From Candidatus Enterousia sp. (GTDB taxonomy: Bacteria; Pseudomonadota; Alphaproteobacteria; Rs-D84): 64,000 nt of DNA. The position numbers and the translations under genes were made by a program. Below are positions 2,225-53,567 of this stretch, piece by piece. Within the stretch, counting starts at the first letter, position 1; each line of letters opens with the position of its first letter. The notes under the pieces were generated by a model, which searched no databases, had not been told where the DNA came from, and saw only the letters and a program-made list of their open reading frames with translations. The stretch lies in NCBI GenBank assembly GCA_045586565.1, contig JAZNAO010000006.1, positions 1,457 to 65,456 on the forward strand, in the 5' to 3' direction.

Positions 2225-3106
2225 TTATTGTTCTTCGCCGAAATCCATATCGCGTAATTTTTCGGCCCTGGGCGCAATCTTCGCAACAGATGTCTGCAAC
2301 AGTTCGATATCATTTTGTGCCTGGGCAAAGTGTCGTGAAACGTTCCCCGCACGGTCAGACAGACGCGACAAATCCGTCAACAACATATCCAATTCATGTT
2401 TAATTTTTGCCGCCACGCGTTTGATTTTTATATCAGATAACACTGCGCGAATTGTATTCAGTGTTGCCCACAGTGTCGATGGCGACACAATAAACACCTT
2501 TTTGCGTGCTGCATATTCAATTGTATTTGGAAATTCACGATGCAACATTTCAAATATCGATTCTGATGCAATAAACATCATTGCGGATTCGGCAGTACGT
2601 CCGGCGATAATGTACTTTTCGCCGATTGCATCAATATGCTTGCGCACGTCCAATTCGAATTGTTTGCGTGCCATGCCGTCATTAGTATCCATCATCATCC
2701 GGTTATAACTTTCCAATGGAAATTTACTGTCGATAATCATATCGCCCGGCGGATAGGGCAGGCGGATAATACAGTCCGGTCGTACACCTGATTCCATCAC
2801 GCTTTGAAATGCATATGTTTCTGGTGGCATAATGTCGCGCACCAAATCTTCCAGTTGGCGTTCGCCAAATGTGCCGCGCGCCTGTTTATTGCCCATTAAA
2901 ATGTTTTTAAAGTTCGCAATATCAGAACTGATATTTTTCAATTCAATTGCGTTCTGGCTTAACGCGCCCAGGCGTTCTGCCAACCGTTCGCGCAGTCGCG
3001 CATTGTCTTCGCGCAGGGCCGATATATCAATCGTTGGCCGGCGCATTAAAATCGCAACCAATAAAACAATAATTATTCCCAATAACACAAAAATATAAGT
3101 TGTCAT
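2225..3106 (-). CDS. rmuC: DNA recombination protein RmuC
   Basis: N-terminal TM helix, then a coiled coil, then a RmuC-type core (PDCIIRLP...IIDSKFPLESY). Confidence 0.75.
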   Translation of the reverse strand: MTTYIFVLLGIIIVLLVAILMRRPTIDISALREDNARLRERLAERLGALSQNAIELKNISSDIANFKNILMGNKQARGTFGERQLEDLVRDIMPPETYAFQSVMESGVRPDCIIRLPYPPGDMIIDSKFPLESYNRMMMDTNDGMARKQFELDVRKHIDAIGEKYIIAGRTAESAMMFIASESIFEMLHREFPNTIEYAARKKVFIVSPSTLWATLNTIRAVLSDIKIKRVAAKIKHELDMLLTDLSRLSDRAGNVSRHFAQAQNDIELLQTSVAKIAPRAEKLRDMDFGEEQ

Positions 3107-4871: not shown

Positions 4872-5603
4872 ATGACACGATATAAAGTAATCTTGGAATA
4901 TGATGGCACAGGCCTGATTGGGTGGCAAGAAAACCGCCATGGGCCGTCTGTGCAATCAATTATGAAAGATGCCATTGAATGTTTTTGTGGTGCGCGCGTT
5001 GATGTTGTGGCGGCGGGACGCACAGATGCCGGTGTGCATGCGGTTGCGATGACGGCGCACTTTGACATTGATGGTGAACATGATGCCGAAACCGTTATGC
5101 GGGCATTAAATTTTTATTTGGTAAATAAACCTGTGGCGGTGTTGGATTGTGAAATTGTGCCTGATGAATTTCATGCGCGATTTGATTGTGTCGCGCGCCA
5201 TTATAAATATGTTGTTTTAAATCGTGGGCCGTCACCGGTACTGCAACAAAATCGTGTTTATTGGGTGCCAAAGAAATTAGATGTTGATGCAATGCGTGCA
5301 GCCGCAGAAAAATTAATCGGCAATCATGATTTTACCAGTTTTCGTGCATCTGAATGCCAGGCGAAATCCCCAATTAAAACATTGGACAGAATAGAAATAA
5401 CCCAAAACGGCGACGAAATTATTTTTGAATTTTCTGCGCGTTCGTTCTTGCATCATATGGTGCGTAATATTGTTGGTACACTGATTGAAATTGGTCATGG
5501 TAAACCATATGATATTGATGAAGTGTTGGCGGCAAAGAATCGTGCGGCGGCGGGCCCAACGGCGCCGGCGTCTGGATTATATTTTATGCGCGCAGAATAT
5601 TAA
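4872..5603 (+). CDS. truA: tRNA pseudouridine(38-40) synthase TruA
   Basis: Catalytic motif AAGRTDAGVHA, with TruA-typical length and layout. Confidence 0.9.
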   Translation: MTRYKVILEYDGTGLIGWQENRHGPSVQSIMKDAIECFCGARVDVVAAGRTDAGVHAVAMTAHFDIDGEHDAETVMRALNFYLVNKPVAVLDCEIVPDEFHARFDCVARHYKYVVLNRGPSPVLQQNRVYWVPKKLDVDAMRAAAEKLIGNHDFTSFRASECQAKSPIKTLDRIEITQNGDEIIFEFSARSFLHHMVRNIVGTLIEIGHGKPYDIDEVLAAKNRAAAGPTAPASGLYFMRAEY

Positions 5604-7546
5604 TGCCATGGCCGATTGGCGGGTGTGTATTTTATACGACCATTTGGGTACATTATAAATCCACCACGCAATATTTTGTGTGCACATTTTTCTGAATCTA
5701 TATTCCAATAAGACACAATATAATCCACACTTTCATCATTGCATAATTTTTGCAGATTATTCATCAGTGGTACGAACTTTTGGATATAAACAATATTGTT
5801 ATATCTGTATACACCGTTGTCGTGTTTGCGACGTGGGTTTGGTGTGTCGATTGCTTCGTTATTTAATTTCTTCCACGTGTTAAACGCAAAGAAATGATTT
5901 GATGCACGTGATTTATTAAATTCCAGTTTCCCATTGTCATCGATAAATCCAACCAGTTCATTATCATGCGTTGTATAAAATATCGGCTTTGGTGTTGTCG
6001 AAACATAAATTGCCCCAGACATGCAAAACACAATACACAAGATAATATTTAATCTGATTTTGTATGGTGTGATTACAATCAAACTAATCAGTCCCAATAT
6101 AAAACACATTATTGCAGCATTTGAAATATGTGGTACGTCAATTACAGACATTGGCAATTGTGCAATCCAATTTGCAATCTGAAATGCCATGTCATAAATT
6201 TGGTGCGCCCAGTTTAATGGGAATAAAATCCCAAACACAGATAACAATGCGCCGATTATAACCAGTGGCATAATTGTCACTGAAAATATAGGCAATAAAA
6301 TTAAATTACCCAGTATGCTGTATGTCGGAATTGTACCAAAATGCATGGCAACAAATGGGGCGGTAAATATCCCGGCCCACACAGATGTTAAAACAGATGC
6401 ATATGTAATCTTTAATATTTTGTTATGTGGCATTTTCGGTTTAACGACGTCATACATCCATACCAATCCAAATACCGCGGCAAAAGATAATTGAAATCCA
6501 GCCTGCATTACATAGTGCGGATTTATCAAAAACATTAATATAAAGACCATTGCAATATTACGCATTGAAATTGCACTGCGTCCGAAAATAAATGCCATAA
6601 ATACCAGTGTTGTCATACAAAACGCGCGAAATGTCGCCGTGTCTGCCCCAGATAAACACATATAAAATAATAATCCCGCCCACGCGCATATTAACGCCGG
6701 GGATTTTGCCGGTATCCGTCGTGTGATGTATGGAATACTGCGGAATATGAAAAAGAACACAACAAATAACCATCCGCCCAGTAATGTCATATGAAATCCA
6801 CTGATTGACCAAATGTGTCCGACACCGGCAGATGTCCAAATTACATCATCCTTTTCTGGAACCATGTTTTTATATCCCAACACCAAACTGTCGACCAAGA
6901 AAGATTCTGATTTGTGGTGAATAAATTCGCGCAGATTTACACTGTTTGCATGATTGATAATTTTCAAATCTGTGACATAACCCGTCGCAGTCAGGTTATT
7001 AAAATATGCATGTCGTGCCCAATCAAATGTTTCTGGCGCAGGCGCCGGTGACATACCGAACAGTCCAACCGTTGCAGATATATTGTCACCGACATTTGGC
7101 ACAATAATATCATCGCCAATTTTAACACGCACGCGTGCCATCCCATTGCCTGCGCGAATATCTGATGCACGTACCGATAAATACAAACGTTTGCCGTCTG
7201 GGGTATAGTCAATTGATTCAACAATCGCATTTATATTATGGTCGTGTAAATCATATTTTAGTTTTGGTGTGTCGACTAAATGTGTATATATGAACGCATA
7301 ACAAAAACCAAAACAGAGCAGGGCAATCCCGCGAATAATATTTGGAATTTTATTCCAGAATATAATTGTAATTAACCCCAGTGTAATTATCGGCAATCCA
7401 ATGATGTATGGTTCGGCCGGCATAGTAAAATATAACGCGGCGCCAAACGCCATTAAAAATGGCACGAACCAAAACAAGTTTTCAGATTGATATTTCCACC
7501 AATTTTTCATATCCAAATTATAGGAATTTATTCTGTTGCCCTGCAA
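5600..7546 (-). CDS. comEC: ComEC/Rec2-family DNA internalisation channel protein (no metallo-beta-lactamase domain visible)
   Basis: Polytopic membrane protein with a soluble insertion between N-terminal TMs (DUF4131-like), followed by a competence-domain-like TM bundle. I saw no HxHxDH motif anywhere in the protein. Confidence 0.75.
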   Translation of the reverse strand: MQGNRINSYNLDMKNWWKYQSENLFWFVPFLMAFGAALYFTMPAEPYIIGLPIITLGLITIIFWNKIPNIIRGIALLCFGFCYAFIYTHLVDTPKLKYDLHDHNINAIVESIDYTPDGKRLYLSVRASDIRAGNGMARVRVKIGDDIIVPNVGDNISATVGLFGMSPAPAPETFDWARHAYFNNLTATGYVTDLKIINHANSVNLREFIHHKSESFLVDSLVLGYKNMVPEKDDVIWTSAGVGHIWSISGFHMTLLGGWLFVVFFFIFRSIPYITRRIPAKSPALICAWAGLLFYMCLSGADTATFRAFCMTTLVFMAFIFGRSAISMRNIAMVFILMFLINPHYVMQAGFQLSFAAVFGLVWMYDVVKPKMPHNKILKITYASVLTSVWAGIFTAPFVAMHFGTIPTYSILGNLILLPIFSVTIMPLVIIGALLSVFGILFPLNWAHQIYDMAFQIANWIAQLPMSVIDVPHISNAAIMCFILGLISLIVITPYKIRLNIILCIVFCMSGAIYVSTTPKPIFYTTHDNELVGFIDDNGKLEFNKSRASNHFFAFNTWKKLNNEAIDTPNPRRKHDNGVYRYNNIVYIQKFVPLMNNLQKLCNDESVDYIVSYWNIDSEKCAHKILRGGFIMYPNGRIKYTPANRPWH

Positions 7547-7588: not shown

Positions 7589-9160
7589 ATGGCAAGATAT
7601 ATATTTATTACTGGTGGGGTTGTATCAAGTTTAGGCAAGGGCGTCGCAGCGGCAGGTTGCGGCGCCCTTCTTCAATCGCGTGGATATACGGTGCATGCGC
7701 GAAAATTTGACCCGTATTTGAATATTGATCCTGGGACAATGTCACCATTTCAGCACGGTGAAGTTTACGTGACAAATGACGGTTATGAAACAGATTTAGA
7801 TTTAGGATATTATGAACGTTTCTTGGGTGCAAAATTATCCAGAAACGATTCTGTATCTGGGGGGCGAATATATTGGGATGTATTAAATGCCGAACGTCGT
7901 GGGGACTATCTGGGTGGTACAGTGCAAATGATTCCGCACGTTTCAAATAAAATAAAAGAATACATTGCTGCACCAACTGATACAGATTTTGTGGTGTGCG
8001 AAATTGGTGGCACCGTAGGCGATATCGAAGGTAAGATTTTCTTAGAATCAATACGTCAATTCGCAAATGATGTTGGTCGCAAAAATGTTATGTTTGTTCA
8101 TTTAACATTGGCGCCATATTTGGAAAAATCAGGTGAATTAAAAACCAAGCCAACCCAGATGTCTGTTCGACAATTACTGGAAAACGGAATCCAGGCAGAT
8201 ATGCTGATTGTGCGAACGCCACGAATGTTGACGGCCGATGAGCGCGATAAAATCGGAATGTTTTGTAATCTGCCATCCAAAAGTGTCATCAGTGGAATTG
8301 ACGTTGATAATATCTATAAAATACCATTGGCATACGAATCCCAACACGTCTTTGACATTATTGCCAATCATTTTGATTTACCACATGCGCGGGGTGACAT
8401 GACGCGATTTGAACGTATTGAACGATATCTGGATGCAGATTTGCCGACGGTCAACATTGGTATTGTGGGCAAATACTTTAATGTCCCAGACGCGTATAAA
8501 TCATTAAACGAGGCCTTGTTTCATTCTGGTATACAAAATAATGTGCACATAAATTTATGTAAACTGGATGCGGAAAAATTCACCCCAGACGATTGTCGCA
8601 ACATGCATGGAATATTAGTTCCCGGGGGATTTGGTGTTCGTGGCACAGATGGTAAAATTGCCGCTGCAAAATACGCACGTGAAAACAAAATTCCATATAT
8701 GGGGATATGTCTGGGGATGCAGGTTGCAGTTATTGAATTTGCGCGCAATGTATTGGGTATTGATAATGCAAATTCGTCAGAATTTAGTTCTGATTGCACC
8801 CCGGTGATTGGGATTATGTCAGAACACAATGCAGAAAATATGGGTGGCACATTGCGATTGGGCGCATACCCATGCAATATAACACCAAACACATTGGCGC
8901 ACCAGATATATAATACAACACAAATATCCGAACGGCATCGCCACAGATACGAAATGGACATATCTTTAGAGAAACGCTTTGCCGATGCTGGTATGATAAT
9001 ATCTGGGCGCAGTCCCGATGGAACATTGCCGGAAATGATTGAGCTTTGCAATCATCCCTTCTTTATTGCGGGTCAATTTCACCCAGAATTTCAATCGTCG
9101 CCATACACGGGCCATCCGATGTTTAATGCATTTGTATCTGCGGCAAAAAAACAAATATAA
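7589..9160 (+). CDS. pyrG: CTP synthase
   Basis: N-terminus ARYIFITGGVVSSLGKG, glutaminase Cys motif GICLGMQ, and C-terminal HPEF. Confidence 0.95.
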   Translation: MARYIFITGGVVSSLGKGVAAAGCGALLQSRGYTVHARKFDPYLNIDPGTMSPFQHGEVYVTNDGYETDLDLGYYERFLGAKLSRNDSVSGGRIYWDVLNAERRGDYLGGTVQMIPHVSNKIKEYIAAPTDTDFVVCEIGGTVGDIEGKIFLESIRQFANDVGRKNVMFVHLTLAPYLEKSGELKTKPTQMSVRQLLENGIQADMLIVRTPRMLTADERDKIGMFCNLPSKSVISGIDVDNIYKIPLAYESQHVFDIIANHFDLPHARGDMTRFERIERYLDADLPTVNIGIVGKYFNVPDAYKSLNEALFHSGIQNNVHINLCKLDAEKFTPDDCRNMHGILVPGGFGVRGTDGKIAAAKYARENKIPYMGICLGMQVAVIEFARNVLGIDNANSSEFSSDCTPVIGIMSEHNAENMGGTLRLGAYPCNITPNTLAHQIYNTTQISERHRHRYEMDISLEKRFADAGMIISGRSPDGTLPEMIELCNHPFFIAGQFHPEFQSSPYTGHPMFNAFVSAAKKQI

Positions 9161-9183
9161 AATCCCCCGTCTGGGGGATTTTC
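9158..9183. terminator. Bidirectional terminator between pyrG and skp-like gene
   Basis: ATCCCCC-GTCT-GGGGGAT hairpin flanked by an A-run and a T-run. Confidence 0.75.
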
Positions 9184-9849
9184 TTAGAAACCTTGTGGTT
9201 TGTCCATTTTGACCTTGGATACTTTTTTATCCAATGCCTGGATTACTTCGTTTGTAATGTCCAGATTTTCTGTGTTTGCACCTGTGCGCGCCATACGACC
9301 GTCGATTACCAATGACAGTTGTTTTTTATCAATGATACCTTCGATAACCGGGTCCAGATGTTTTACCTGAATATCATTCAATGCCTTTTGGAAAGACATT
9401 TCAACACTCTGTGCACGTTCGGTCAATTCGCGTTGCAGATTTGTCACTTTGTTTTGATAGTCAACAACGCGACGTTGTAATGCTTCACGTGACAGAACGT
9501 CTTGTGATTTTTCGATTTCTTCCTTTTCTTCTTCCAGTTCTTTCTGCTTTTTTGTCAATTCATCACGCAGTTTACTTTCATATGATTCTTTCTGTGCGCG
9601 TAAATCAGCCAACGCCACAGCATCATTTTGAATTGCGTCCATACGTATAACCGCGATACGCAGGTTTGCCGCGCTTGCGGCATCTGTGGTTACGACTTCC
9701 ATTGCATCGGCAACAGATGCGCCCGTATCAGAATTTAATGCCGATACCCCCCATACACCCAATGCCGCGACTGCGATAACAACCGCCGCCACAATGCCAG
9801 TTTTTTTATAGTTTTTTACAACCTGATTTTCATTTGATTTTTTTACCAT
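9184..9849 (-). CDS. OmpH/Skp-like periplasmic chaperone (membrane-anchored)
   Basis: N-terminal hydrophobic anchor, a long charged coiled coil, and a C-terminal ...LDITNEVIQALDKK resembling the OmpH family. Confidence 0.55.
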   Translation of the reverse strand: MVKKSNENQVVKNYKKTGIVAAVVIAVAALGVWGVSALNSDTGASVADAMEVVTTDAASAANLRIAVIRMDAIQNDAVALADLRAQKESYESKLRDELTKKQKELEEEKEEIEKSQDVLSREALQRRVVDYQNKVTNLQRELTERAQSVEMSFQKALNDIQVKHLDPVIEGIIDKKQLSLVIDGRMARTGANTENLDITNEVIQALDKKVSKVKMDKPQGF

Positions 9850-19117: not shown

Positions 19118-22100
19118 ATGTCATTTCTCAAAAATACAGTAAGTTTATTGGCGGTTTTCTGCGTTGTTCCGGCGGCTTTTGGTGCCACGGCGCGCCCCAG
19201 TGTTTTAAACACTGCGACGGCGGTTTCGGCAACTGGTGCGGTTCGTCGTGTGGCGATGCCAACGATGACATCGTATATCACTGGCTCGGCGGGTGGTGTT
19301 ACAAACAACAATAATGGCAACTCTGGTTCCAGCAACTTATTAGACAGCATTGAATGCATCGATGCATACACCGAATGTATCAAATCCGAAGATGTGTGCG
19401 GCGAAGATTTGTCAGAATGCACAACAAACGTATTGTTCCATGGCAAAATGCCCCAGTGTGTAAGCACCCTGGCCCAATGTGAACCGGATGGGGTTGATGC
19501 ATTATTTGGCACAAAGAATGTAACCGATTTGTCGTTCTATGATTCAAATAATTCTGCGGAATATGATGCCGAAGATGGTGAGGTTATTCGTTACACATAC
19601 CCAACAGACGGCAGTGTTCTGGGGCAAATGATTATATCTGCGGCGATTGAAAATCAGTATGATACACAAACATGCGTGAAACGTTATATGTCATGCTTGA
19701 ATAAAGACAGTGTTTGTGGTGCAGACTTTGAATTATGTACCGACGAACGTGAATTTAAAAAGCAGGCATTGTTCTGTGATTCAACCCTGGCCCGTTGCCA
19801 GGCAGACGGTGTTCGCGAATTATTCGGGGTTTCAAAATGGTCGCCACATAAAATGGGTGCGGATGGCAAAATCGAAGGTTCTTCCCGTGTTGGTGTGGCA
19901 ATCAAAGACGGTGCAGATTTGGCGGCGTTGAACGCGGTTTCTACCTGTTACAAGGTTGTTGAACAGTGTTTCTTGGGCGCATGTTCGGCCAATCCGTTGC
20001 GTTGTTTGGCGGGGTCGAATTTATCGACATTGACGGCGGCAAATGATATTGCGGCGGACGGTATCACAATCACATTGTCAAATGACAGTGCGCCATCAAC
20101 CCCAACAGACGTAAATCGTTATCTGCGCACATCGTGCCAGGATACAATTGGTGCAAATAAATTCTGTCACATGACATTCTTGGGCAAAAATCCAAGTAAG
20201 AAAGACTTGGCGGATGTAGATGTCCAATCAGAAGTCTTTGACGATGCAATCAGCGAACGTAAAAAATACGTTGAATCAAAAATCCAAGATTTGATGACAC
20301 AGTTCGATAAACGTGCCAAGGATAAATGTGTTGAAACAATTCGTTCATGCGCAATGCGTTCCTGTGGCGAAGGTGTCGGTTCTGTATGTTATTCATCTGT
20401 ATATGGCGCGAATGGCGGAAATACAATTGCGGGTCCGGCCACACGTCCAGATATCAAAACGGCATGTGAATCTGTTGTAAATACCGATGTGAATTGCCAA
20501 TATGCATATTCAACTGTTATAGATAATGGTGTGTATTCATACAATTACATCCAAAATTCTGTATTTGATACATTATTCCCAGAATATGCTGCCGACAAAA
20601 CAAACAATGATCCAATCGGTGTAATCGGGTCGTTAAATTCGTCCCTGTCGACCAGTTATAATGCCGCTGCTCTGGCGCAAATGAAGAAGCAATGTCAATC
20701 TGTCGCGACCAGCTGTGTTAAATCAATGTGTGGCACGGATTACCAGAATTGCTATCGCAATCGAACAGATATCTTGTCTGATTTGACCAATACGGATAAT
20801 GCAAAGTTTGATACGTCAATGAACAAGGTTGGTGGTGTTCTGGATTATACAATTGTATTGGGATTGTGCATGAACACGGTTAAAAACGCCGATGTATGTG
20901 ATGAACACCTGAAAATCCAAAAGGCCAAATTAGATTTGGAAAAGACAACGGAAAATGTATGGGGAACACAATCGTCTGTCCGTGATGGCTGGATTGATGC
21001 TGGTGGTGCCAAGAAGTTTGAAGAAGGGATGGTTCATTCCAAAGACGAAAATGGTGCCGATTTATGCACAAATGCTGCAGGGGACCAAGGTGTTTGCTAT
21101 GACGTTGATGCCAATGGTGATGTTTTTAATAAACCTGTGATGATATCTGCAGACCTGTATAAAACGAACCAGGCCACAACATCATTATTCCGTGAATTGT
21201 TGGTTGATTTAGAATACGAAGCCCAGGCGAAGTATAACGCCAAATTGACGAAACAACAGAATATGTGTCTGGCGGCAAATTCTGGTGGTGTTGTTGGCGC
21301 TGGCGATATGGGTTCAACATTCATGTGGGCAAAATTGAAAAGGGGCAAGGTTCCGGCCGATTATTCAATGAATGGTTTAACCAGTGACCAAATTGTCCCA
21401 AGTAATGAATTGTATGGTTCATTCTGCCGTGTGCGTGTGACACTGCAATCCACAGACCCAACCGTATCTGAATGGTTAAACAGTACCGAAGGTCAGAAAT
21501 ATGCAACGCGTTATTTTGCGGCGGGTGATGCATTTACATGCGGTTCATGGATACCTGTTGGCGATGAAGGAACATGCCATGACGATACCGCCGCGGGCAT
21601 CAGAAGATGCAAAGGTGGCTCAGGATTACGTGGCCTGGCGCAAAAGGTTGGCGAAGCCACATATACATACGACAAACAGAAATCCGACACAATTCTGCAA
21701 ACAATGTTGCCAGTGGTTGGATTGCTGGGTGGTGGTATTGGTGGTGCATATCTGGGCGCCGGCATCGAAGACGGTTCTGTATTCGGCGGTCTGACGGGTA
21801 AAAAGAGCACAAAATCAGACAGCAAGACAGCAAAGACTGCAAACGATAGATGTTCGAATGCCATCGATATGGCCAAAACAAAATTAGCGGAAGCAAATCC
21901 TAGCCTGGAAAGTGTAAGAAGTTTAGCCAAAACAGCGGCTGATGAATTAGAAGACATGGACAAGGTTGTGTACAAAAACCTGGAGTATTGGCCAGATGGT
22001 ATGACAACTACTGTTACTGAAACTATTTCTAAAGGAGAAGGGGAGCAAACTAAATATTATTGTGGCGGGACAGAAGTCAATACGAAAGTACCAGCACGGT

Positions 22101-22432
22101 GCGTTGGTGATAAGTTATTGGCCGATGCAAGAACAGAAATCACACCCATTTTGAATAGACTAGAAGGTTATTGTGAATCTGCGGTCGAAGACGAAGATGC
22201 CAATGCTAAAAAGAAAAAGGGTGCCGCCGCCGCGGGGGCTGTGACAACCGGTGTGATCAGCAGTGTTCTGACATGGGGCGTCACACGCAGCATCATTGAT
22301 GCACAACGCACCAAAGAACAACAGGCCGCAATTGATGAATTCATGGATTCATTGGGTTCAAAAATCAATTGTGTTGTCGGTGGGGATTCCATTGCGGTAT
22401 ATGGCGACACATTGGTCACCAGTATGGAATAA
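19118..22432 (+). CDS. Large Cys-rich secreted/membrane-anchored protein (1104 aa), unknown family
   Basis: RBS GGAG..AAGGGG and signal peptide ...VVPAAFG|A. Contains duplicated Cys modules, a Gly-rich hydrophobic segment (LPVVGLLGGGIGGAYLGAGI) and a second C-terminal hydrophobic segment. Followed by a strong terminator. Confidence 0.7.
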   Translation: MSFLKNTVSLLAVFCVVPAAFGATARPSVLNTATAVSATGAVRRVAMPTMTSYITGSAGGVTNNNNGNSGSSNLLDSIECIDAYTECIKSEDVCGEDLSECTTNVLFHGKMPQCVSTLAQCEPDGVDALFGTKNVTDLSFYDSNNSAEYDAEDGEVIRYTYPTDGSVLGQMIISAAIENQYDTQTCVKRYMSCLNKDSVCGADFELCTDEREFKKQALFCDSTLARCQADGVRELFGVSKWSPHKMGADGKIEGSSRVGVAIKDGADLAALNAVSTCYKVVEQCFLGACSANPLRCLAGSNLSTLTAANDIAADGITITLSNDSAPSTPTDVNRYLRTSCQDTIGANKFCHMTFLGKNPSKKDLADVDVQSEVFDDAISERKKYVESKIQDLMTQFDKRAKDKCVETIRSCAMRSCGEGVGSVCYSSVYGANGGNTIAGPATRPDIKTACESVVNTDVNCQYAYSTVIDNGVYSYNYIQNSVFDTLFPEYAADKTNNDPIGVIGSLNSSLSTSYNAAALAQMKKQCQSVATSCVKSMCGTDYQNCYRNRTDILSDLTNTDNAKFDTSMNKVGGVLDYTIVLGLCMNTVKNADVCDEHLKIQKAKLDLEKTTENVWGTQSSVRDGWIDAGGAKKFEEGMVHSKDENGADLCTNAAGDQGVCYDVDANGDVFNKPVMISADLYKTNQATTSLFRELLVDLEYEAQAKYNAKLTKQQNMCLAANSGGVVGAGDMGSTFMWAKLKRGKVPADYSMNGLTSDQIVPSNELYGSFCRVRVTLQSTDPTVSEWLNSTEGQKYATRYFAAGDAFTCGSWIPVGDEGTCHDDTAAGIRRCKGGSGLRGLAQKVGEATYTYDKQKSDTILQTMLPVVGLLGGGIGGAYLGAGIEDGSVFGGLTGKKSTKSDSKTAKTANDRCSNAIDMAKTKLAEANPSLESVRSLAKTAADELEDMDKVVYKNLEYWPDGMTTTVTETISKGEGEQTKYYCGGTEVNTKVPARCVGDKLLADARTEITPILNRLEGYCESAVEDEDANAKKKKGAAAAGAVTTGVISSVLTWGVTRSIIDAQRTKEQQAAIDEFMDSLGSKINCVVGGDSIAVYGDTLVTSME

Positions 22433-22459
22433 TTAAAAAAAGTTTTGCATAAACCTCCT

Positions 22460-22486
22460 AAAATCCCCCACCCGGGGGGATTTTTT
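22460..22486 (+). terminator. Intrinsic terminator after the 1104-aa gene
   Basis: TCCCCC-ACCCG-GGGGGA hairpin followed by T6. Confidence 0.75.
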
Positions 22487-22568
22487 ATCGCAGTAGCCGT
22501 CGCGGAATAATCTCCTTTGCTGGCGAAGGGGTGTCAGGCAGTGAAGGGGTAGTGGGAATTTAACAATA

Positions 22569-22652
22569 CCGCGATAAATAAAAGTTTAGTCTTGCATAAC
22601 ATTTTACAAGAATCTGTGATTCTTGTCATTGCGCGCGCAGCGTGGCAATCCA
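22569..22652 (-). repeat. Dispersed palindromic repeat arm (copy R1)
   Basis: Its reverse complement aligns almost base-for-base with 53191-53283 (CTGGATTGCCACG...ATGACAAGAATCACAGATTCTTGTAAAA...AAACTTTTATTTATCGCGG). Confidence 0.8.
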
Positions 22653-22695
22653 GTTATATGCGCGTAAAACGCGCACAATATTATGATACAATTTA

Positions 22696-22787
22696 CTGGA
22701 TCGTCACGGTCGTTTCACATCCGCGCGATGACAATTTTTGTGAACAAAAATTGTAAACAATGCATGCGCCGAACTTCTATTTATCTG
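22696..22787 (+). repeat. Dispersed palindromic repeat arm (copy F2), inverted relative to R1
   Basis: CTGGATCGTCACGGTCGTTTCAC...CGCGATGACAATTTTTGTGAACAAAAATTGTAAA...AACTTCTATTTAT. The architecture matches 53191-53283, with a covarying central hairpin. Confidence 0.65.
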
Positions 22788-22793
22788 TATAAT

Positions 22794-23471
22794 TTACTTT
22801 AAAATTTCAGACATGAATTTTTCGTGGTTTTCTAAATCAGCCGTCGGCACATCAAACTTGCGATATGGAAAGTCCCCACCAACCTTTGGGTGTGCCAACA
22901 TGGCGGCATGCTGCTTTGCGATAATTTCACTGACATCTGGGGCCGGTGCAGTGTTTTCCAGTTCCAAATAAACCTTGGCCAGAATTTCCGAGTCAATCAA
23001 TGCCCCGTGCGCATCTGCACGCGCCGTCAGTGATATCCCATACCATTTTGCCAACGCATCCAATGTATAACTTTTGGGCCCAAACACACGGTTACGCGCA
23101 ATCACCAGTGAATCCAGCATCTGTTCACGTGGAATTGGTGGCATTTTCAGCATTTCTAATTCGTGATTTATAAACGGAAAGTCAAAGTCCATCCCATTGT
23201 GTGCGACAATCGGGCTGTCACCGATAAAGGCCATGAAACGTGGCGCAACCTCTGACATTTTTGGTTTGTCTTCCAGAAATGCGTTTGAAATCTTGTGAAC
23301 CATATATGTATCTGGTGGAATAATTTTGCCTTCGGGATTGATATATTCATGAAAAGAATTATCGGTTATTTTACCGTCAACGATTTCCACTGCACCAATT
23401 TCAATGCATCGGTCGCCGCGCATATAGTCAAACCCAGTTGTTTCAATGTCAAAGCAAATAACGCGTTTCAT
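22794..23471 (-). CDS. dnaQ: DNA polymerase III epsilon subunit (3'-5' exonuclease)
   Basis: Exo motifs FDIETTG, HNGMDFDFPF and HGALIDSEILAKVY. Confidence 0.88.
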   Translation of the reverse strand: MKRVICFDIETTGFDYMRGDRCIEIGAVEIVDGKITDNSFHEYINPEGKIIPPDTYMVHKISNAFLEDKPKMSEVAPRFMAFIGDSPIVAHNGMDFDFPFINHELEMLKMPPIPREQMLDSLVIARNRVFGPKSYTLDALAKWYGISLTARADAHGALIDSEILAKVYLELENTAPAPDVSEIIAKQHAAMLAHPKVGGDFPYRKFDVPTADLENHEKFMSEILK

Positions 23472-33054: not shown

Positions 33055-33759
33055 ATGGAATTGCTGATTAAAGGTTCGACCGAATTAAACAAAATGTTTA
33101 TGGCGTTGCAACGTACTGCGTCTGGTCTGCGCCGTGATTTTGGAGAGGTGGAAAACCTGCAACAATCGTTGCGTGGCGCACGTGATTTTGTGCAAAAGGC
33201 ATCTGCCCGTATCGAAGAAAGTATTTTAAACGACCTGTTGTTGGTTCGTCCATCGGCGGGTTTGTTGACACCAAACGTATCGCGTGCGGGTGATGGACGT
33301 GACGAATTTGTTTTGTCATTGTCTGGTGCGTCTAATTTTGTTCGTGGCAATCCGCATTTTGCAATATCATTGGCATTGCGTTCAAATGACGAAACAAAGA
33401 TTGCGTTGGTATATTCCCCAATTGACGAAAGATTGTACTATGCAGAATCCGAACGTGGTGCATATATATTCTCGGCGTATCATTCTGCCCGAATTAAGGT
33501 GTCTAATTTGTCAGACCCGGCGGATGTAACGGTTGGTTACAATACATCTGATAATCGTGAAACGATTGGTGATGTTCGTCGTACGGGATGTCCGGCATTG
33601 GATTTGGCATGGGTTGCGGCGGGTAAATTAGATGCATATGTATCAGACCCACTGGATTTTGCAGAAATTGCGGCGGGCGACCTGATTGTCCGCGAAGCAG
33701 GCGGCCGAATTGAAATGATGACTGACCTGGTTGCAACGAACGGTCATATTGAAATTTAA
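33055..33759 (+). CDS. suhB: Inositol monophosphatase/SuhB-family protein with degenerate active-site motifs
   Basis: The family backbone is present (RRDFGEVENLQ, NF..G.PHFAISLAL, ALDLAWVAAGKLDAYV, VREAGG). The DPxDGT motif is replaced by LSLSGAS. Confidence 0.7.
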   Translation: MELLIKGSTELNKMFMALQRTASGLRRDFGEVENLQQSLRGARDFVQKASARIEESILNDLLLVRPSAGLLTPNVSRAGDGRDEFVLSLSGASNFVRGNPHFAISLALRSNDETKIALVYSPIDERLYYAESERGAYIFSAYHSARIKVSNLSDPADVTVGYNTSDNRETIGDVRRTGCPALDLAWVAAGKLDAYVSDPLDFAEIAAGDLIVREAGGRIEMMTDLVATNGHIEI

Positions 33760-33785
33760 AATCCCCCATTTGGGGGATTTTTTTG
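33757..33785 (+). terminator. Intrinsic terminator after suhB-like gene
   Basis: ATCCCCC-ATTT-GGGGGAT hairpin followed by T7. Confidence 0.8.
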
Positions 33786-33799
33786 AGTTCAAGTTTCTT

Positions 33800-33862
33800 A
33801 GATAAATAAAAGTTTATCGAAGTATTTTTTACAATTTTCTGACAAGAAAATTGTCATTCCTG
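33800..33862 (-). repeat. Dispersed palindromic repeat arm (copy R2)
   Basis: GATAAATAAAAGTTTA...TTTTACAATTTTCTGACAAGAAAATTGTCATT has the same architecture as 22569-22652. Confidence 0.6.
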
Positions 33863-33993
33863 CTCCGGGCCCCGCAAAAATTGTAAATTTTTGTGGGTGG
33901 GCATAGGCAGGAACAGGGTTTATAAAATTTACATACTCTCTGGAATACGTAATTGGTGCGCGTTGCGCACGGTTAAGAGACCCTATTACCGCC

Positions 33994-34059
33994 TGCGCGG
34001 TAATGACAAGAATTAAAAATTCTTGTAAAATGTTATGCAGATTTAAACTTTTATTTAAG
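33994..34059 (+). repeat. Dispersed palindromic repeat arm (copy F3), inverted relative to R2
   Basis: ...GGTAATGACAAGAATTAAAAATTCTTGTAAAATGTTATGCAGATTTAAACTTTTATTTAAG. It runs directly into the -35 box of the downstream promoter. Confidence 0.7.
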
Positions 34060-34061
34060 TA

Positions 34062-34090
34062 TTGATTCAACTTTTCAAAAATGATAAAAT
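34062..34090 (+). promoter_or_regulatory. Sigma70-type promoter of Cys-rich gene A
   Basis: TTGATT, a 17-nt spacer, then TAAAAT. The same geometry and -10 box recur at 53299 and 55128. Confidence 0.6.
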
Positions 34091-34358
34091 ACATTTGTCG
34101 GTGGGATTTTTCACCGATGGGGTGTGGAAACCCGTTATCTAAGCGTCTATGCACGATTGCATAACGCGCCAATGGCGTGTTTTTTGTGCAGTGTATGGAT
34201 GAAAATTTTTTTCTCCTGATCTTATGTGGTCAGGAGGGCTGCGAATATATTGAATAAGCACACAATTCTTAGATATTGTTTCCAACCTCCTGGCCACCTA
34301 TCTTTTATGGTGGTTTTTGTTTAATTTGCGTATGCAGAACGAAAGGGAGGAAAGTAAT
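34091..34358 (+). promoter_or_regulatory. Conserved structured leader (attenuator-like), copy A
   Basis: Hairpins at 34098-34117 and 34120-34133, and hairpin plus T-run at 34164-34185. Alternative segments: S1 34213-34221, S2 34226-34238, S3 34286-34298, S4 plus T5 34309-34318. Conserved in copies B and C. Confidence 0.6.
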
Positions 34359-35102
34359 ATGCAAAAATTTTTAAAACTAACCGGCGTATCAGTTTTGGCA
34401 ATCGTTGCCGCAACGGGCGCCAATGCCGCGGGATACACCTGTGAAGAATTGATTGAATACACAGCATGTAATGATGGGTGGTATTTAAACGATGGTGATT
34501 GTATAGAAAGCACAACATGTCCATCGGGCAGTTATTTACGTCCGTTTTGTTCAGTGAGCGATTGTGGTGTGAGTTATGATTCTGAGACCGAAGAATATAC
34601 TTGTTGTGATGGTGATTATGTTGCAAACCTGGAATGCATACAATGCCCATCTGTTGGTCTGACTGACAAAGACGGCAAAGTGGTGTCGGTTAAATCACAG
34701 CCTGGCTCAATGGGTGTTGGTTCGTGCTATATTGACCCGAATGCATATTTCAAGGATAGCACGGGGACATATCATTATAAGTCCAATTGTTCTGTGCGTT
34801 TCTGGGAAACATCCCCAGACACAGAAGAAGAATGTACCAGTCTTGGTTTTGAATGGGTATATACAAGTGGTGAATCAGATTCTTATTATGTTTGTGCGTT
34901 GAACATGCGGATTAGTGAACAGTTGGGTTTAATAAAGACAGAAGAAGAATGTAACGCGGCAGCTGAAAAAATATATGGCTTGGTATGGAAAGATGAAGGA
35001 GATTATTATTATTCCAGATGCGAAACCATAAACTACGAAGAGAGTTACTTTATTTTTAGGGATGAATGGTATGTTTTTGGTGATCCTATTTCTCACTCCT
35101 AA
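34359..35102 (+). CDS. Secreted Cys-rich protein, family member A (247 aa)
   Basis: RBS GGGAGGAAAG and signal peptide ...ATGANA|AGYTCEELIEYTAC. Shares the N-terminal module and the CP..GLTDKDG...SC.ID...F.D..G.Y.YK..C module with the protein at 55429. Confidence 0.75.
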   Translation: MQKFLKLTGVSVLAIVAATGANAAGYTCEELIEYTACNDGWYLNDGDCIESTTCPSGSYLRPFCSVSDCGVSYDSETEEYTCCDGDYVANLECIQCPSVGLTDKDGKVVSVKSQPGSMGVGSCYIDPNAYFKDSTGTYHYKSNCSVRFWETSPDTEEECTSLGFEWVYTSGESDSYYVCALNMRISEQLGLIKTEEECNAAAEKIYGLVWKDEGDYYYSRCETINYEESYFIFRDEWYVFGDPISHS

Positions 35103-35105
35103 AAT

Positions 35106-35134
35106 AAAAAATCCCGCAATCGCGGGATTTTTTA
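35106..35134. terminator. Bidirectional terminator between Cys-rich gene A and fabZ
   Basis: A-run, then ATCCCGC-AATC-GCGGGAT hairpin, then T6. Confidence 0.75.
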
Positions 35135-53137: not shown

Positions 53138-53162
53138 AATCCCCGCCACCCGGCGGTTTTTT
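53137..53162 (+). terminator. Intrinsic terminator after thioesterase gene
   Basis: CCGCC-ACCC-GGCGG hairpin followed by T6. Confidence 0.7.
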
Positions 53163-53190
53163 CAGCGACAAATAATAATGATACTATGGA

Positions 53191-53283
53191 CTGGATTGCC
53201 ACGTTCGTTTCACTCCCTCGCGATGACAAGAATCACAGATTCTTGTAAAAATAGTTGTATAACTAAACTTTTATTTATCGCGG
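53191..53283 (+). repeat. Dispersed palindromic repeat arm (copy F1, solo)
   Basis: CTGGATTGCCACGTTCGTTTCACTCCCTCGCGATGACAAGAATCACAGATTCTTGTAAAA...AAACTTTTATTTATCGCGG. Near-identical in reverse complement at 22569-22652. Confidence 0.8.
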
Positions 53284-53298
53284 TATTCTATTTACCTG

Positions 53299-53327
53299 TT
53301 GACCTAAAATTTTAATATTGATAAAAT
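53299..53327 (+). promoter_or_regulatory. Sigma70-type promoter of Cys-rich gene B
   Basis: TTGACC, a 17-nt spacer, then TAAAAT. Confidence 0.6.
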
Positions 53328-53567
53328 CCTTTTGTCGGTGAGATTTTTCACCGATGGGGTGTAACGACCCGTGCGATAGCGTCTGTGCGATATTTGCGCC
53401 CAGATGAAATTACTCCTGATCTATTCGTGGTCAGGAGGGCTTGTGAATAATGCGTCCGCGCAAAATCAACAGCACAATTCTATCGATTGTCGTTAACCTC
53501 CTGACCACCTGACTTATAAAACGGTGGTTTTTATTTGATAAAACGCAAAGGAAAGGGAGAGTTTTAT
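53328..53567 (+). promoter_or_regulatory. Conserved structured leader, copy B (lacks the internal terminator-like hairpin)
   Basis: H1 and H2 are conserved. Segments: S1 53413-53421, S2 53427-53439, S3 53497-53509, S4 plus T5 53523-53532. Confidence 0.55.

What the first reader, a model, noticed from the sequence alone, without database searches (positions are those of the whole stretch)
22569..22787. MITE-like inverted pair of a dispersed palindromic repeat between two convergent genes
Seen in sequence:
- 22569-22652 (reverse) and 22696-22787 (forward) are two arms of the same repeat in inverted orientation, and the outer ends read GATAAATAAAAGTTT / AAACTT(C/T)TATTTAT.
- Each arm contains CTGGAT(T/C)G(C/T)CACG...CGCGATGACAA, then a perfect hairpin, then TTGTAAA.
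- The hairpin sequence covaries between copies. It is ACAAGAAT-CACAG-ATTCTTGT at 22606-22626 and 53226-53246, ACAATTTTT-GTGAAC-AAAAATTGT at 22731-22754, ACAATTTTC-TGACAAG-AAAATTGT at 33831-33854, and ACAAGAAT-TAAAA-ATTCTTGT at 34006-34026.
- The GC-rich part (GTCATTGCGCGCGCAGCGTGGCAATCCAG) resembles the short palindromic 'GTCATTGCGAG...GCAATCCAG'-type repeats scattered in several intracellular bacteria; this is from memory.

Inference: a non-autonomous mobile element or REP-like family. The conserved ACAA-N-TTGT hairpin could be a protein-binding site or an RNA stem.
Basis: partly seen in the sequence, partly recalled or inferred. Interest (0 to 1): 0.5.

Follow-up and report, generated by a model that had tools for sequence, protein, structure and literature searches.

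The report
REP-like palindromic hairpin repeat element
The inverted pair is real: it is one copy of a ~200-250 bp palindromic, hairpin-rich intergenic DNA repeat found in a clade of uncultured gut Alphaproteobacteria. Its GC-rich hairpins resemble the Neisseria NTS/dRS3 ("Ssn-related") repeats, and it sits in variable repeat mosaics next to genes for fast-evolving cysteine-rich secreted proteins.

Summary
The window holds exactly five arms of one repeat: two inverted pairs (22565-22790, 33801-34058) and one solo arm (53175-53280).

Each arm has three parts:
- a terminal motif, GATAAATAAAAGTTTA;
- a perfect AT-rich hairpin, ACAA..TTGT;
- a GTCAT-anchored GC-rich hairpin.

Homologous ~190-255 bp elements occur in at least 7 related gut Alphaproteobacteria MAGs. 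One MAG carries four copies identical over ~190 bp at four loci.

Both hairpins vary by fully compensatory changes and never show G-T pairs. This points to DNA hairpins rather than RNA.

The GC hairpin is of the published Ssn-related (NTS/dRS3-like) type. Strict matches lie in homologous arms of relatives, and near-Neisseria NTS copies lie in the orthologous locus of a relative. The window's own copies are variant or decayed.

All three window loci adjoin Cys-rich secreted-protein genes at synteny breaks. Close relatives show an empty site, a deletion derivative, and a different core between the same ends.

No target-site duplication, transposase or Ssn gene was found.

Best reading: a REP/BIME- or NIME-like mosaic DNA repeat, a new variant of a known kind. 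Its partner enzyme is inferred, not shown.

The parts
22565..22790 (.). Complete palindromic element A/B (two inverted arms around a central hairpin); this is the finding.
22573..22588 (+). Left terminal motif GATAAATAAAAGTTTA. Inverted similarity continues about 10 nt further out (AATACCGC).
22606..22626 (.). AT-rich perfect hairpin 'hp3' of arm A: ACAAGAATC-tgt-GATTCTTGT, 9 bp.
   Evidence: The orthologous copy in L163 has a compensatory C-G to T-A change.
22624..22653 (+). GTCAT-anchored GC-rich hairpin of arm A (TGTCATTGCGCGCGCAGCGTGGCAATCCAG). SRM/NTS-like; the stem is imperfect.
   Evidence: One mismatch from the published SRM pattern. Homologous arms match strictly.
22660..22674 (.). 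Central GC hairpin GCGCG-TAAAA-CGCGC, the symmetry centre of the element.
22695..22733 (-). GTCAT-anchored hairpin of arm B. It reads TGTCATCGCGCGG..CCGTGACGATCCAGT on the - strand. This is a variant with an 11-nt loop insert and is shared with arm E.
   Evidence: (D7).
22731..22754 (.). hp3 of arm B: ACAATTTTTG-tgaa-CAAAAATTGT, 10 bp. The same stem occurs in 4 copies in MAG321.
   Evidence: (I5).
22771..22785 (+). Right terminal motif GAACTTCTATTTATC. It ends 8 nt from the stop codon of the exonuclease gene.
22504..22558 (+). Solo, decayed copy of a second hairpin repeat ('RS-X': GGAATAATCyCCTTyGCTGGCGAAGGGGTGTCA..GGGGTAGTGG), lying between the terminator and arm A. It is part of the same repeat mosaic.
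   Evidence: (two copies in L165 at 88-91% identity; both flanks of a DUF559 gene in L163).
22460..22486 (+). Intrinsic terminator of the 1104-aa Cys-rich protein gene (AAAATCCCCC-N-GGGGGGATTTTTT); left boundary of the mosaic.
   Evidence: I6; D3.
33801..34058 (.). Second complete element C/D (255 bp), between the inositol-monophosphatase terminator and the promoter of Cys-rich gene 34359. Sub-parts: hp3 at 33831-33854 and 34006-34026; GTCAT hairpin 33853-33918 with a ~40-nt insertion in its loop; centre 33957-33971; perfect GTCATTACCGCGCAGGCGGTAATAGGG on the - strand at 33981-34007.
   Evidence: Absent from the orthologous site of L144/L147/L150/L151.
53175..53280 (+). Solo arm E, truncated at the centre, between the acyl-ACP thioesterase terminator and the promoter of Cys-rich gene 53568. 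Sub-parts: GTCAT hairpin variant 53190-53228 (- strand sense), hp3 53226-53246, tail 53265-53279.
   Evidence: (D7, D10, I1).

Best explanation
22565-22790 is one copy of a REP/BIME- or NIME-like intergenic DNA repeat family of a clade of uncultured gut Alphaproteobacteria.

Shown:
- A full unit is ~190-255 bp and palindromic in plan.
- Each of its two inverted arms carries (i) a conserved end, AATACnnnGATAAATAAAAGTTTA, (ii) a perfect AT-rich hairpin, ACAA..TTGT, and (iii) directly abutting it, a GC-rich hairpin preceded by GTCAT and followed by CCAG or AGGG.
- The units sit in mosaics with other hairpin repeats, between terminators and promoters.
- They lie preferentially beside genes for rapidly diverging Cys-rich secreted proteins, at places where gene order and cassette content differ between close relatives.

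Inferred:
- The element acts as DNA, not RNA. When the strands are separated (replication, uptake of transforming DNA, repair), the hairpins extrude.
- The GTCAT hairpin is the recognition site of a hairpin-specific single-strand nuclease or recombinase. An Ssn-type GIY-YIG nuclease is the most likely candidate, by analogy with NTS/SsnA in Neisseria.
- By that analogy, the predicted cut site, about 3 nt 5' of (T/C)GTCAT, falls inside the 3' half of the ACAA..TTGT stem.
- The repeats also provide portable homology at the borders of the Cys-rich gene cassettes, so that cassettes and repeat cores are swapped or lost by recombination.
- The outer 11 nt (TTTTATTTATC) doubles as the A/T-rich promoter-upstream motif of the Cys-rich genes.
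For: Family and dispersal:
- The window holds five arms at three loci.
- A scan of species-representative genomes found 12 loci in 7 Alphaproteobacteria MAGs from ruminant and other guts. In nearly all of them the hit is one arm of a full element, 88-255 bp from end motif to end motif and mostly 189-208 bp.
- MAG321 has 4 copies that are 100% identical over ~190 bp at 4 different loci, and homology stops at the end motifs.

Hairpins under selection, acting as DNA:
- The AT-rich hairpin has 9 distinct stems. Pairs 1-3 are invariant; pairs 4-10 vary and are always Watson-Crick. Own pairing is 100% against 52% when halves of different stems are cross-paired, and there are no G-T pairs.
- The GTCAT hairpin has 7-9 distinct, perfectly paired stems.
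- The orthologous copy in L163 differs from arm A by a compensatory C-G to T-A change.
- By contrast, the adjacent RNA leader uses many G-U pairs.

SRM/NTS kinship:
- The published SRM pattern (PMC11893778) matches strictly inside the homologous arms of L001, L007, L008, L009 and L012 and of L163/L164/L165. Chance expectation is about 0.1 per 64 kb.
- L165, downstream of the 64%-identical ortholog of the 1104-aa gene, carries two copies of CGTCATCCCCGCGCAGGCGGGGATCCAG. This is the Neisseria NTS with one compensatory pair exchanged. An A/B-like element lies beside them.
- L003 carries CGTCATTCCCGCAAATGCGGGAATCCAC.
- Arm A is one mismatch from the SRM pattern.

Mosaic and variable context:
- L003 and L165 show arrays of end motifs, heptamer runs, SRMs in alternating orientation and other repeat units.
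- In L134 and L135, both with 98%-identical DnaQ, the same site between the same end motifs holds either an unrelated 156-bp GC-rich core or a 91-bp deletion derivative of a C/D-like element.
- C/D is absent from the orthologous site of L144/L147/L150/L151.
- The gene beyond A/B, beyond C/D's cassette and beyond E differs among relatives.
- A 53%-identical ortholog of the 1104-aa gene has only a plain terminator downstream.

Gene association:
- All three window loci touch a Cys-rich secreted-protein gene. By my rough count, about 7 of ~51 intergenic regions do so, which gives p of about 0.003.
- 8 of 15 elements in the other MAGs do too.
- The 1104-aa protein's nearest non-self homolog is 81% identical, against 98% for the neighbouring DnaQ.

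Competence and recombination genes:
- ComEC, ComF-like and RmuC genes are in the window.

Tail as promoter motif:
- TTTTATTTATC lies 0-7 nt from the -35 box with or without the element.
Against: - The window's own copies do not match the strict SRM pattern (0 hits). Only arm A is within one mismatch, and at 1-2 mismatches the pattern no longer discriminates.
- Arms C and D and their relatives have A, not the C reported as most critical for SsnA binding, directly after the palindrome.
- No GIY-YIG/Ssn gene, RAYT or other candidate partner was found in the window or in about 350 kb of related loci. That is only a small part of any genome.
- The AT-rich hairpin and the end motif have no counterpart in the published NTS/SRM description.
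- The filled/empty difference at C/D coincides with replacement of the whole downstream gene cassette. It therefore does not prove independent movement of the element.
- The function in recombination or transformation is by analogy only.
Confidence: 0.6

Rival explanations
1. It is a classical MITE: a deletion derivative of a DNA transposon, mobilised in trans by a transposase that binds the ~14-24 bp terminal inverted repeats (AATACnnnGATAAATAAAAGTTTA). The internal hairpins would be incidental cargo.
For: - The terminal inverted repeats are the best conserved part of the element. The same ends enclose at least three unrelated cores: hairpin arms, a GC-rich core in L134, and heptamer-repeat arms in L010.
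- The size is 190-255 bp with no ORF.
- One MAG has four identical copies at different loci.
- There is presence/absence polymorphism among close relatives.
- Metagenome contigs often break at these loci.
Against: - No target-site duplication was seen at any of 19 element borders.
- No transposase or longer element with the same ends was found in the window or any locus.
- The hairpin stems are kept perfect through compensatory change, which is not expected of passive cargo.
- The empty site already contains the outer 11 nt of the end motif.
- Solo ends and solo arms are common.
Confidence: 0.2
2. It is a cis-regulatory module of the Cys-rich gene promoters (an UP-like A/T tract, operator palindromes, possibly an extra outward promoter) that has been copied along with those genes. 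On this view it is not a repeat element in its own right.
For: - C/D and E, and 8 of 15 copies elsewhere, lie directly upstream of the promoter plus conserved leader of Cys-rich genes.
- The tail motif TTTTATTTATC sits 0-7 nt from the -35 box in five species.
- Arms A, D and E contain ATGACA-N17-TAAAA(T/A), a sigma-70-like match with the hairpin as spacer.
Against: - The copy in question lies between two convergent genes and faces no promoter. About half of the copies elsewhere do likewise.
- Orthologous promoters function without the element: L144 and others, and window gene 55429.
- The -35/-10-like spacing is 19-20 nt in the other arm types.
- The distance from tail to -35 ranges from 0 to 21 nt.
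Confidence: 0.12
3. The arms encode, or are part of, a structured non-coding RNA (an sRNA or a UTR element) whose stems are the covarying hairpins.
For: - The hairpins show compensatory changes.
- The predicted folding is strong.
- Some copies could be reached by read-through, or transcribed from the promoter-like site in the arms.
Against: - There are no G-U-type pairs in about 80 stem positions, and the stems are exact palindromes, so both strands fold equally.
- There is no Rfam match even at E<=1.
- The location is outside transcription units, between terminator and promoter.
- Arms occur in both orientations relative to the neighbouring genes.
Confidence: 0.05

Closest known systems
Neisseria NTS / dRS3 repeats and the wider 'Ssn-related motifs' (SRM), cut as ssDNA by SsnA-type GIY-YIG nucleases (Chenal et al. 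2025, PMC11893778)
   Same: - The hairpin is anchored by GTCAT and followed by CCAG. Stems such as ATTCCTGC-GCAG-GCAGGAAT are close to ATTCCCGC-GCAG-GCGGGAAT.
- Strict SRM matches occur in homologous arms, and near-identical NTS copies occur in the same clade and the same locus.
- The repeats cluster around variable surface or secreted protein genes.
- The host carries competence genes.
   Different: - Here the hairpin is only one module of a larger palindromic unit with its own conserved ends and an abutting AT-rich hairpin.
- Many copies, including 4 of the 5 in the window, deviate from the SRM pattern or have A instead of C after the stem.
- No Ssn gene has been seen, and no biochemical data exist.
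Neisseria intergenic mosaic elements (NIMEs: repeat blocks bounded by dRS3) and E. coli BIMEs (mosaics of REPs in alternating orientation)
   Same: - Intergenic arrays are built from several short repeat modules in alternating orientation.
- Composition varies between strains, and the arrays lie next to variable genes.
- Cores are exchanged between constant boundary motifs.
   Different: - The boundary motif here is an A/T-rich 14-24-mer, not the GC hairpin itself.
- Heptamer tandem runs are part of the mosaic.
- No RAYT with a GTAG-type REP was seen.
Bacterial MITEs such as Correia elements (Neisseria), ERIC/IRU, RUP and Rickettsia palindromic elements
   Same: The elements are 100-250 bp, non-coding, have terminal inverted repeats, fold into long hairpins, are dispersed in intergenic DNA, and may carry promoter-like sequences.
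   Different: - There is no target-site duplication (Correia elements duplicate TA), and no sequence similarity to these families.
- The arms are not copies of each other; they carry different, individually palindromic hairpins.
- RPEs insert in frame into genes, whereas these never lie within ORFs.
IS200/IS605-derived palindrome-associated elements and REP/RAYT systems (HUH Y1 enzymes acting on ssDNA hairpins)
   Same: The hairpins are subterminal, there is no target duplication, and the logic of action on single-stranded DNA is the same.
   Different: - Those families lack terminal inverted repeats and use other guide or cleavage motifs.
- No TnpA or RAYT gene was seen here.

Membership tests
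Ssn-related motif (SRM/NTS) repeats | Matches the published degenerate pattern HGTCWY-N0-2-YYVSBRH-N0-5-WNVSBRG-N0-2-RNCYNB. | tested here: inconclusive
   - The window has 0 strict hits. Arm A is at 1 mismatch, but the pattern is no longer specific at 1-2 mismatches.
- Strict hits lie inside homologous arms in L001, L007, L008, L009, L012, L163, L164 and L165.
Ssn-related motif (SRM/NTS) repeats | A 20-50 nt inverted repeat forming a hairpin, with oriented non-palindromic flanks (GTC 5', C 3'). | tested here: inconclusive
   - GTCAT is invariant in all arms, and the stems are perfect and covarying in relatives and in arm D.
- The base directly after the stem is C in the CCAG-type arms (A, B, E, L007 and others) but A in the AGGG-type arms (C, D, L003-L006, L010, L013).
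Ssn-related motif (SRM/NTS) repeats | The genome encodes a cd10448 GIY-YIG (Ssn) protein, often flanked by the repeats. | tested here: inconclusive
   - None was found in the 64-kb window or in about 350 kb of related loci. The tblastn query did find a positive control in L118.
Ssn-related motif (SRM/NTS) repeats | Strand-specific binding and cleavage as ssDNA by the cognate nuclease. | not testable with these tools
   This needs biochemistry.
MITE (non-autonomous DNA transposon) | Short (<~500 bp), non-coding, with terminal inverted repeats. | tested here: met
   The elements are 190-255 bp. The TIR is GATAAATAAAAGTTTA, extending to about 24 nt.
MITE (non-autonomous DNA transposon) | Direct target-site duplication flanking each copy. 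| tested here: not met
   There is no direct repeat at 19 element borders. The flanks are inverted-similar instead.
MITE (non-autonomous DNA transposon) | A related autonomous element with the same ends and a transposase gene. | tested here: inconclusive
   None was seen in the window or any locus. Whole genomes were not searched.
MITE (non-autonomous DNA transposon) | Multiple near-identical copies at unrelated loci, with insertion polymorphism. | tested here: met
   - MAG321 has four 100%-identical copies.
- There is an empty site for C/D, although the neighbouring gene cassette differs as well.
REP/BIME | Extragenic imperfect GC-rich palindromes in mosaics of alternating orientation, often next to terminators. 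| tested here: met
REP/BIME | A conserved GTAG/CTAC tetranucleotide at the hairpin foot, and a RAYT (TnpA-REP) gene. | tested here: not met
   The foot motif is GTCAT, not GTAG. No RAYT was seen in the sequence held.
NIME (Neisseria intergenic mosaic element) | Repeat blocks of 50-150 bp, each bounded by dRS3 (ATTCCC-N8-GGGAAT) inverted repeats. | tested here: not met
   dRS3-like hairpins are present (ATTCCTGC..GCAGGAAT; ATTCCCGC..GCGGGAAT in L003), but the blocks are bounded by the A/T-rich end motif instead. The resemblance is in organisation only.
Known RNA family (Rfam 15) | A covariance-model match. | tested here: not met
   There is no match at gathering score in the window, and none at E<=1 for 22400-22850.

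The most novel reading that the evidence does not exclude
The conserved A/T-rich ends (AATACnnnGATAAATAAAAGTTTA) are recombination boundaries of a cassette-exchange system of its own. Between them, hairpin cores can be swapped. At least three unrelated cores have been seen between identical ends, two of them at one orthologous site.

The AT-rich hairpin sits exactly over the predicted single-strand cut site next to the GTCAT hairpin, where it could act as a structural gate. Together, the ends and hairpins would let uncultured gut Alphaproteobacteria exchange Cys-rich surface-protein gene cassettes through natural transformation, using an Ssn-type or a still unknown hairpin nuclease. A candidate for the unknown enzyme is the repeat-flanked DUF559 protein seen in L163.
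Probability: 0.15. Interest if true: 0.65.

Novelty: new variant of a known kind. Interest (0 to 1): 0.45.

Why it matters
Hairpin repeats of the NTS/SRM type were linked to a protein partner and to control of natural transformation only in 2025, and only in Neisseria.

What this element adds:
- The same kind of hairpin is embedded in a larger, well-defined palindromic unit.
- The host is an abundant but uncultured clade of human and animal gut Alphaproteobacteria.
- The element sits at the borders of fast-evolving Cys-rich secreted-protein genes, where relatives differ in gene content.

If the inferred mechanism holds, it would extend the repeat-plus-ssDNA-nuclease model of steering recombination around surface-protein genes to a distant gut lineage. 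It would also give defined substrates (with and without the abutting AT hairpin) for testing Ssn specificity.

On a practical level, these repeats explain contig breaks and synteny breaks in MAGs of this clade.

Tried and rejected
- The metagenome scan was wasted.
- I searched for an Ssn/GIY-YIG gene with a motif regex and with tblastn, using a consensus written from memory. The query found a true GIY-YIG gene in the unrelated locus L118, so it works. It found nothing in the window, the MAG loci or the relatives. A database-wide Ssn search was not run, because its top hits could not be tied to this clade.
- Exact look-ups failed for three window proteins: the DnaQ-like protein, the thioesterase and the 1104-aa protein. 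The 1104-aa protein is in the collection on a 67,048-bp NCBI contig, evidently the window's own.
- Target-site duplications: none.
- Rfam: nothing for the element. A weak sRNA-Xcc1 hit in one leader was not reproduced in the other two leaders, so I dismissed it.
- The literal string of the end motif appears in the consensus flank of Helicobacter difH sites. I rejected it as A/T-rich coincidence, because the element has no 11-6-11 dif architecture.
- I compared the end motif by eye with the sigma-28 (-35 TAAAGTTT), ECF-sigma, IHF and integron attC (GTTRRRY) consensus sequences. None fits across copies.
- The SRM pattern relaxed to 1-2 mismatches is uninformative: 8 hits against 2.7 in shuffles, and 41 against 36.
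- The MAFFT alignment of arms (A4) was not in structural register for the hairpin. I therefore counted covariation with a script that indexes pairs from the stem base, rather than with the count of structure pairs.
Full report
**1. The observation**

The region 22565-22790 lies between the stop codon of a 1104-aa gene (19118-22432, +) and the stop codon of a DnaQ-like exonuclease gene (22794-23471, -).

It is an imperfect palindrome. The outer ends GATAAATAAAAGTT / AACTTCTATTTATC are 93% complementary. TTGTCATTGCGCG / CGCGCGATGACAA are 92% complementary, and CGTGGCAATCCAGT / ACTGGATCGTCACG are 86% complementary. A short hairpin, GCGCGTAAAACGCGC, sits at the centre.

The repeat is far beyond chance:
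- ATGACAA-N10-22-TTGTAAA occurs 5 times against 0.04 expected.
- A profile built from 15 arms finds exactly five arms in the window. They are A 22572-22656 (-), B 22691-22786 (+), C 33800-33878 (-), D 33975-34057 (+) and E 53185-53280 (+).
- A/B and C/D are inverted pairs with the tails pointing outward. E is a solo arm cut off at the centre.
- As single-stranded DNA the A/B unit folds with z = -5.7.

**2. Anatomy**

Read from the outside in, each arm has these parts:
- A conserved end, GATAAATAAAAGTTTA. Weaker inverted similarity runs about 10 nt further out (AATACnnn).
- About 15 variable nt.
- TTTAC, then a perfect AT-rich hairpin that always begins ACA(A/G) and ends (T/C)TGT.
- Directly overlapping that hairpin, GTCAT followed by a GC-rich hairpin.
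- A short flank, CCAG(G) or AGGG, and then the centre.

In the window, arm D has a perfect 8-bp GC hairpin (GTCATTACCGCGCAGGCGGTAATAGGG). Arm C has the same type with a ~40-nt insertion in the loop, which is why C/D is 255 bp. Arms A, B and E have imperfect or loop-expanded variants flanked by GTCAT ... TCCAG.

**3. Relatives**

One scan of species-representative genomes, using a strict arm pattern, returned 12 loci. They come from 7 'Alphaproteobacteria bacterium' MAGs from sheep colon, deer rectum and other guts. One further hit was a likely chance match.

In nearly all of these loci the hit is one arm of a full element. Its length from end motif to end motif is 88-255 bp, mostly 189-208 bp.

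Four copies in one MAG are 100% identical over ~190 bp at four different loci. Homology stops at the end motifs.

Protein searches show that the window's clade is abundant in human-gut metagenomes. The DnaQ-like protein has hundreds of homologs at 84-98% identity. The window itself corresponds to an NCBI contig of 67,048 bp.

**4. Hairpins are selected, and as DNA**

The AT-rich hairpin occurs with 9 distinct stem sequences:
- Pairs 1-3 never vary.
- Pairs 4-10 vary and are always Watson-Crick.
- Own pairing is 100%, against 52% when halves from different stems are cross-paired.
- No G-T pair occurs.

The GC hairpin shows 7-9 distinct perfect stems.

The locus-orthologous copy in L163 differs from arm A by one compensatory change: ACAAGAATC/GATTCTTGT against ACAAGAATT/AATTCTTGT.

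The conserved RNA leader of the neighbouring genes uses G-U pairs freely. Exact palindromes without wobble pairs, located between terminators and promoters, present in both orientations and without any Rfam match, argue for DNA hairpins or cruciforms rather than an RNA.

**5. What the GC hairpin is**

A literature search for a remembered Neisseria-like string led to Chenal et al. 2025 (PMC11893778). Their main points:
- The Neisseria NTS (CGTCATTCCCGCGMAVGCGGGAATCYRG, which contains dRS3) and the wider 'Ssn-related motifs' (SRM) are hairpin repeats.
- They are bound and cut, only as ssDNA, by small GIY-YIG nucleases (Ssn).
- They cluster around surface-protein genes and modulate the integration of transforming DNA.
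- They are abundant in Rickettsia, Wolbachia and others.

Their degenerate SRM pattern has about 0.1 chance hits per 64 kb. It matches strictly inside the homologous arms of L001, L007, L008, L009 and L012 (for example TGTCATTCCGGTGCTTGACACCGGAATCCAG) and of L163-L165.

L165 is the locus downstream of the 64%-identical ortholog of the 1104-aa gene. It carries two copies of CGTCATCCCCGCGCAGGCGGGGATCCAG, which is the Neisseria NTS with one base pair exchanged. An element lies next to them whose right arm matches the window's B/E type. L003 holds CGTCATTCCCGCAAATGCGGGAATCCAC.

The window's own arms do not match strictly. Arm A is one mismatch away, a level at which the pattern is no longer specific. 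The AGGG-type arms have A where SsnA binding most needs C.

Membership of the window copies is by homology of the whole arm, not by the pattern itself.

**6. Context and polymorphism**

All three window loci touch genes for Cys-rich secreted proteins:
- A/B lies just downstream of the 1104-aa protein, which has a signal peptide and many Cys residues.
- C/D and E lie just upstream of the promoter and conserved leader of genes 34359 and 53568.

By my rough count only about 7 of ~51 intergenic regions touch such a gene, so three out of three gives p of about 0.003. In the other MAGs, 8 of 15 elements are so placed, and the rest lie mostly between convergent genes.

Orthologous loci in relatives differ in several ways:
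- Relatives with 98%-identical DnaQ have a bidirectional terminator and a Cys-rich gene directly after dnaQ, and no A/B. A 92% relative has yet another gene there.
- The 81% ortholog of the 1104-aa gene is followed by the same terminator and a differently composed element copy, then a different gene.
- The 64% ortholog is followed by an ~800-bp mosaic.
- The 53% ortholog is followed by a plain terminator only.
- At the site of C/D, four relatives read terminator-TTTTTTTTATTTATC-N7-(-35) with no element. The promoter's -35 region and the gene behind it are a different allele, so the whole cassette differs.
- Upstream of the ortholog of gene 34359, L135 has a 91-bp derivative of a C/D-like element, joined at a CTTGTCA microhomology. 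L134 has the same end motifs around an unrelated 156-bp GC-rich core.
- Downstream of the thioesterase, every relative has a different neighbour.

The elements thus mark variable, recombining intergenic mosaics (see also L003). In this they resemble NIMEs and BIMEs.

**7. What was not found**

- No target-site duplication at 19 borders.
- No transposase, recombinase or GIY-YIG gene in the window. The window contains housekeeping genes plus ComEC, ComF-like and RmuC.
- None in about 350 kb of related loci either.

One of them was wasted on a pattern that was too loose.

**8. Mechanism**

Shown:
- A dispersed, selected DNA-hairpin repeat of modular build.
- An association with variable Cys-rich gene cassettes.
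- Exchange and decay of cores between constant ends.

Inferred:
- The GTCAT hairpin is the site of an Ssn-type, or other hairpin-specific, single-strand nuclease or recombinase.
- By the Neisseria mapping, in which the cut lies 3 nt 5' of the NTS, the cut would fall within the 3' half of the AT-rich stem.
- The repeats serve as portable homology and as modulators of recombination of incoming or replicating single strands.

The outer TTTTATTTATC also occurs alone, 0-7 nt upstream of the -35 box of these genes. The element end therefore coincides with an UP-like promoter motif. Arms A, D and E also contain a sigma-70-like ATGACA-N17-TAAAA(T/A), but the spacing is wrong in the other arm types.

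I put 0.6 on the REP/NIME-like, SRM-related DNA repeat reading. Within that, I put about one in three on Ssn itself being the partner. The rivals are a true MITE at 0.2, a pure promoter module at 0.12 and an ncRNA at 0.05.

**9. Verdict**

The finding is real and is correctly sensed as REP-like. It is a new composite variant of a recently characterised kind of repeat, in an uncultured gut lineage. Interest is moderate.

The adjacent conserved leader RNA, and a DUF559 nuclease gene flanked by a second hairpin repeat in a relative, were noticed in passing. They may deserve their own follow-up.

Noticed in passing
window 34085-34358, 53318-53567, 55148-55428 (also L134, L144, L005, L007, L008, L010, L012): The ~250-300-nt leader between the promoter and the start codon of the Cys-rich secreted-protein genes is a conserved structured RNA. 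RNAalifold predicts 54 pairs, 24 of them with compensatory double changes. It has a 5' hairpin, an invariant AUGGGGUGU, a long-range helix with 4 covarying pairs, and an intrinsic-terminator-like hairpin (GGCCACC..GGUGGUUUUU) just before the RBS. It therefore looks like an attenuation-type riboswitch or leader. No Rfam family matches at gathering score. One weak sRNA-Xcc1 hit was not reproduced in the other leaders. This may be more novel than the repeat itself.
   Followed up: partly
window 22504-22558; L163 5367-5395 and 5865-5895; L165 6419-6566: A second hairpin repeat ('RS-X': AATAATCCCCTTCGCTGGCGAAGGGG-GTCAC..GTGAC-GGGGTAGTGG) lies as a decayed solo copy beside arm A. In relative L163, two copies flank a 133-aa DUF559 (Vsr-like endonuclease) gene inserted between the rluD-like gene and the 1104-aa gene ortholog, and the ORF's C-terminus runs into an inverted copy. 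In L165 only the first ~20 nt of that ORF remain between two RS-X copies. This nuclease-gene-flanked-by-its-hairpins layout recalls NTS-ssnA-NTS and REP-RAYT.
   Followed up: partly
window 55068-55100; L003 2565-2600 and 2925-2960; L004, L006, L010, L012, L013 flanks: Runs of 7-nt tandem repeats of varying sequence (GAGATAC/GAGATAT/GAGACAT; GTGGTTA/GTGGTAA; GTTCAAA/GTGCAAA) lie between terminators and element ends, often symmetrically on both sides. In L010 1235-1361 they form the arms of an element bounded by the same end motifs. Their origin and role are unexplained.
   Followed up: partly
L134 11971-12126 (= L138 6606-6761); reverse complement in L165 ~6660-6790: An unrelated 156-bp GC-rich core with three hairpins (CCCCTCC..GGAGGGG, GGTGGGTTAACCCACC, CTCCTCCCGAGGGAGGAG) lies between the same end motifs. 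In L134 it occupies the site that holds a C/D-type derivative in L135.
   Followed up: partly
window 9153-9185, 22454-22486, 33752-33784, 35102-35134, 53130-53162, 55035-55067: Six intrinsic terminators share nearly the same stem (AAAATCCCCC-N4-GGGGGATTTT). Several are bidirectional between convergent genes, and the same stem recurs in the related MAGs.
   Followed up: no
window 5600-7546 (-), 48727-49449 (+), 2225-3106 (-): ComEC (PF03772), a ComF-like protein (double zinc ribbon plus phosphoribosyltransferase) and RmuC are encoded in the window. The lineage therefore has at least part of a DNA-uptake and recombination toolkit.
   Followed up: no
window 19118-22432, 34359-35102, 53568-55040, 55429-56376: Four Cys-rich secreted proteins are encoded here. 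One has Ephrin_rec_like repeats and the others have no Pfam match. They evolve much faster than their neighbours: the 1104-aa protein's nearest non-self homolog is 81% identical, against 98% for the adjacent DnaQ-like protein.
   Followed up: partly
window 22601-22629 (-), 34003-34035 (+), 53223-53254 (+): ATGACA-N17-TAAAA(T/A) inside arms A, D and E scores as a sigma-70-like promoter, with the AT-rich hairpin as its spacer, and points outward. Other arm types have 19-20-nt spacing.
   Followed up: no
window 22432-22452; L163 9299-9320; L165 6329-6350: Directly after the stop codon of the 1104-aa gene, ATTAAAAAAAGTTTTGCATAA resembles the element end plus the next 12 nt of arm A (ATAAATAAAAGTTTAGTCTTGCATAA). 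The stretch is conserved in the orthologous 3' flanks. It could be a relic end or a coincidence.
   Followed up: no
window 56400-56552 (-), 61555-61629 (-): A ribosomal protein L34 gene lies in the 739-nt gap before gyrA (recognised by eye from the translation). A tRNA-Glu(CUC) gene is also present.
   Followed up: no
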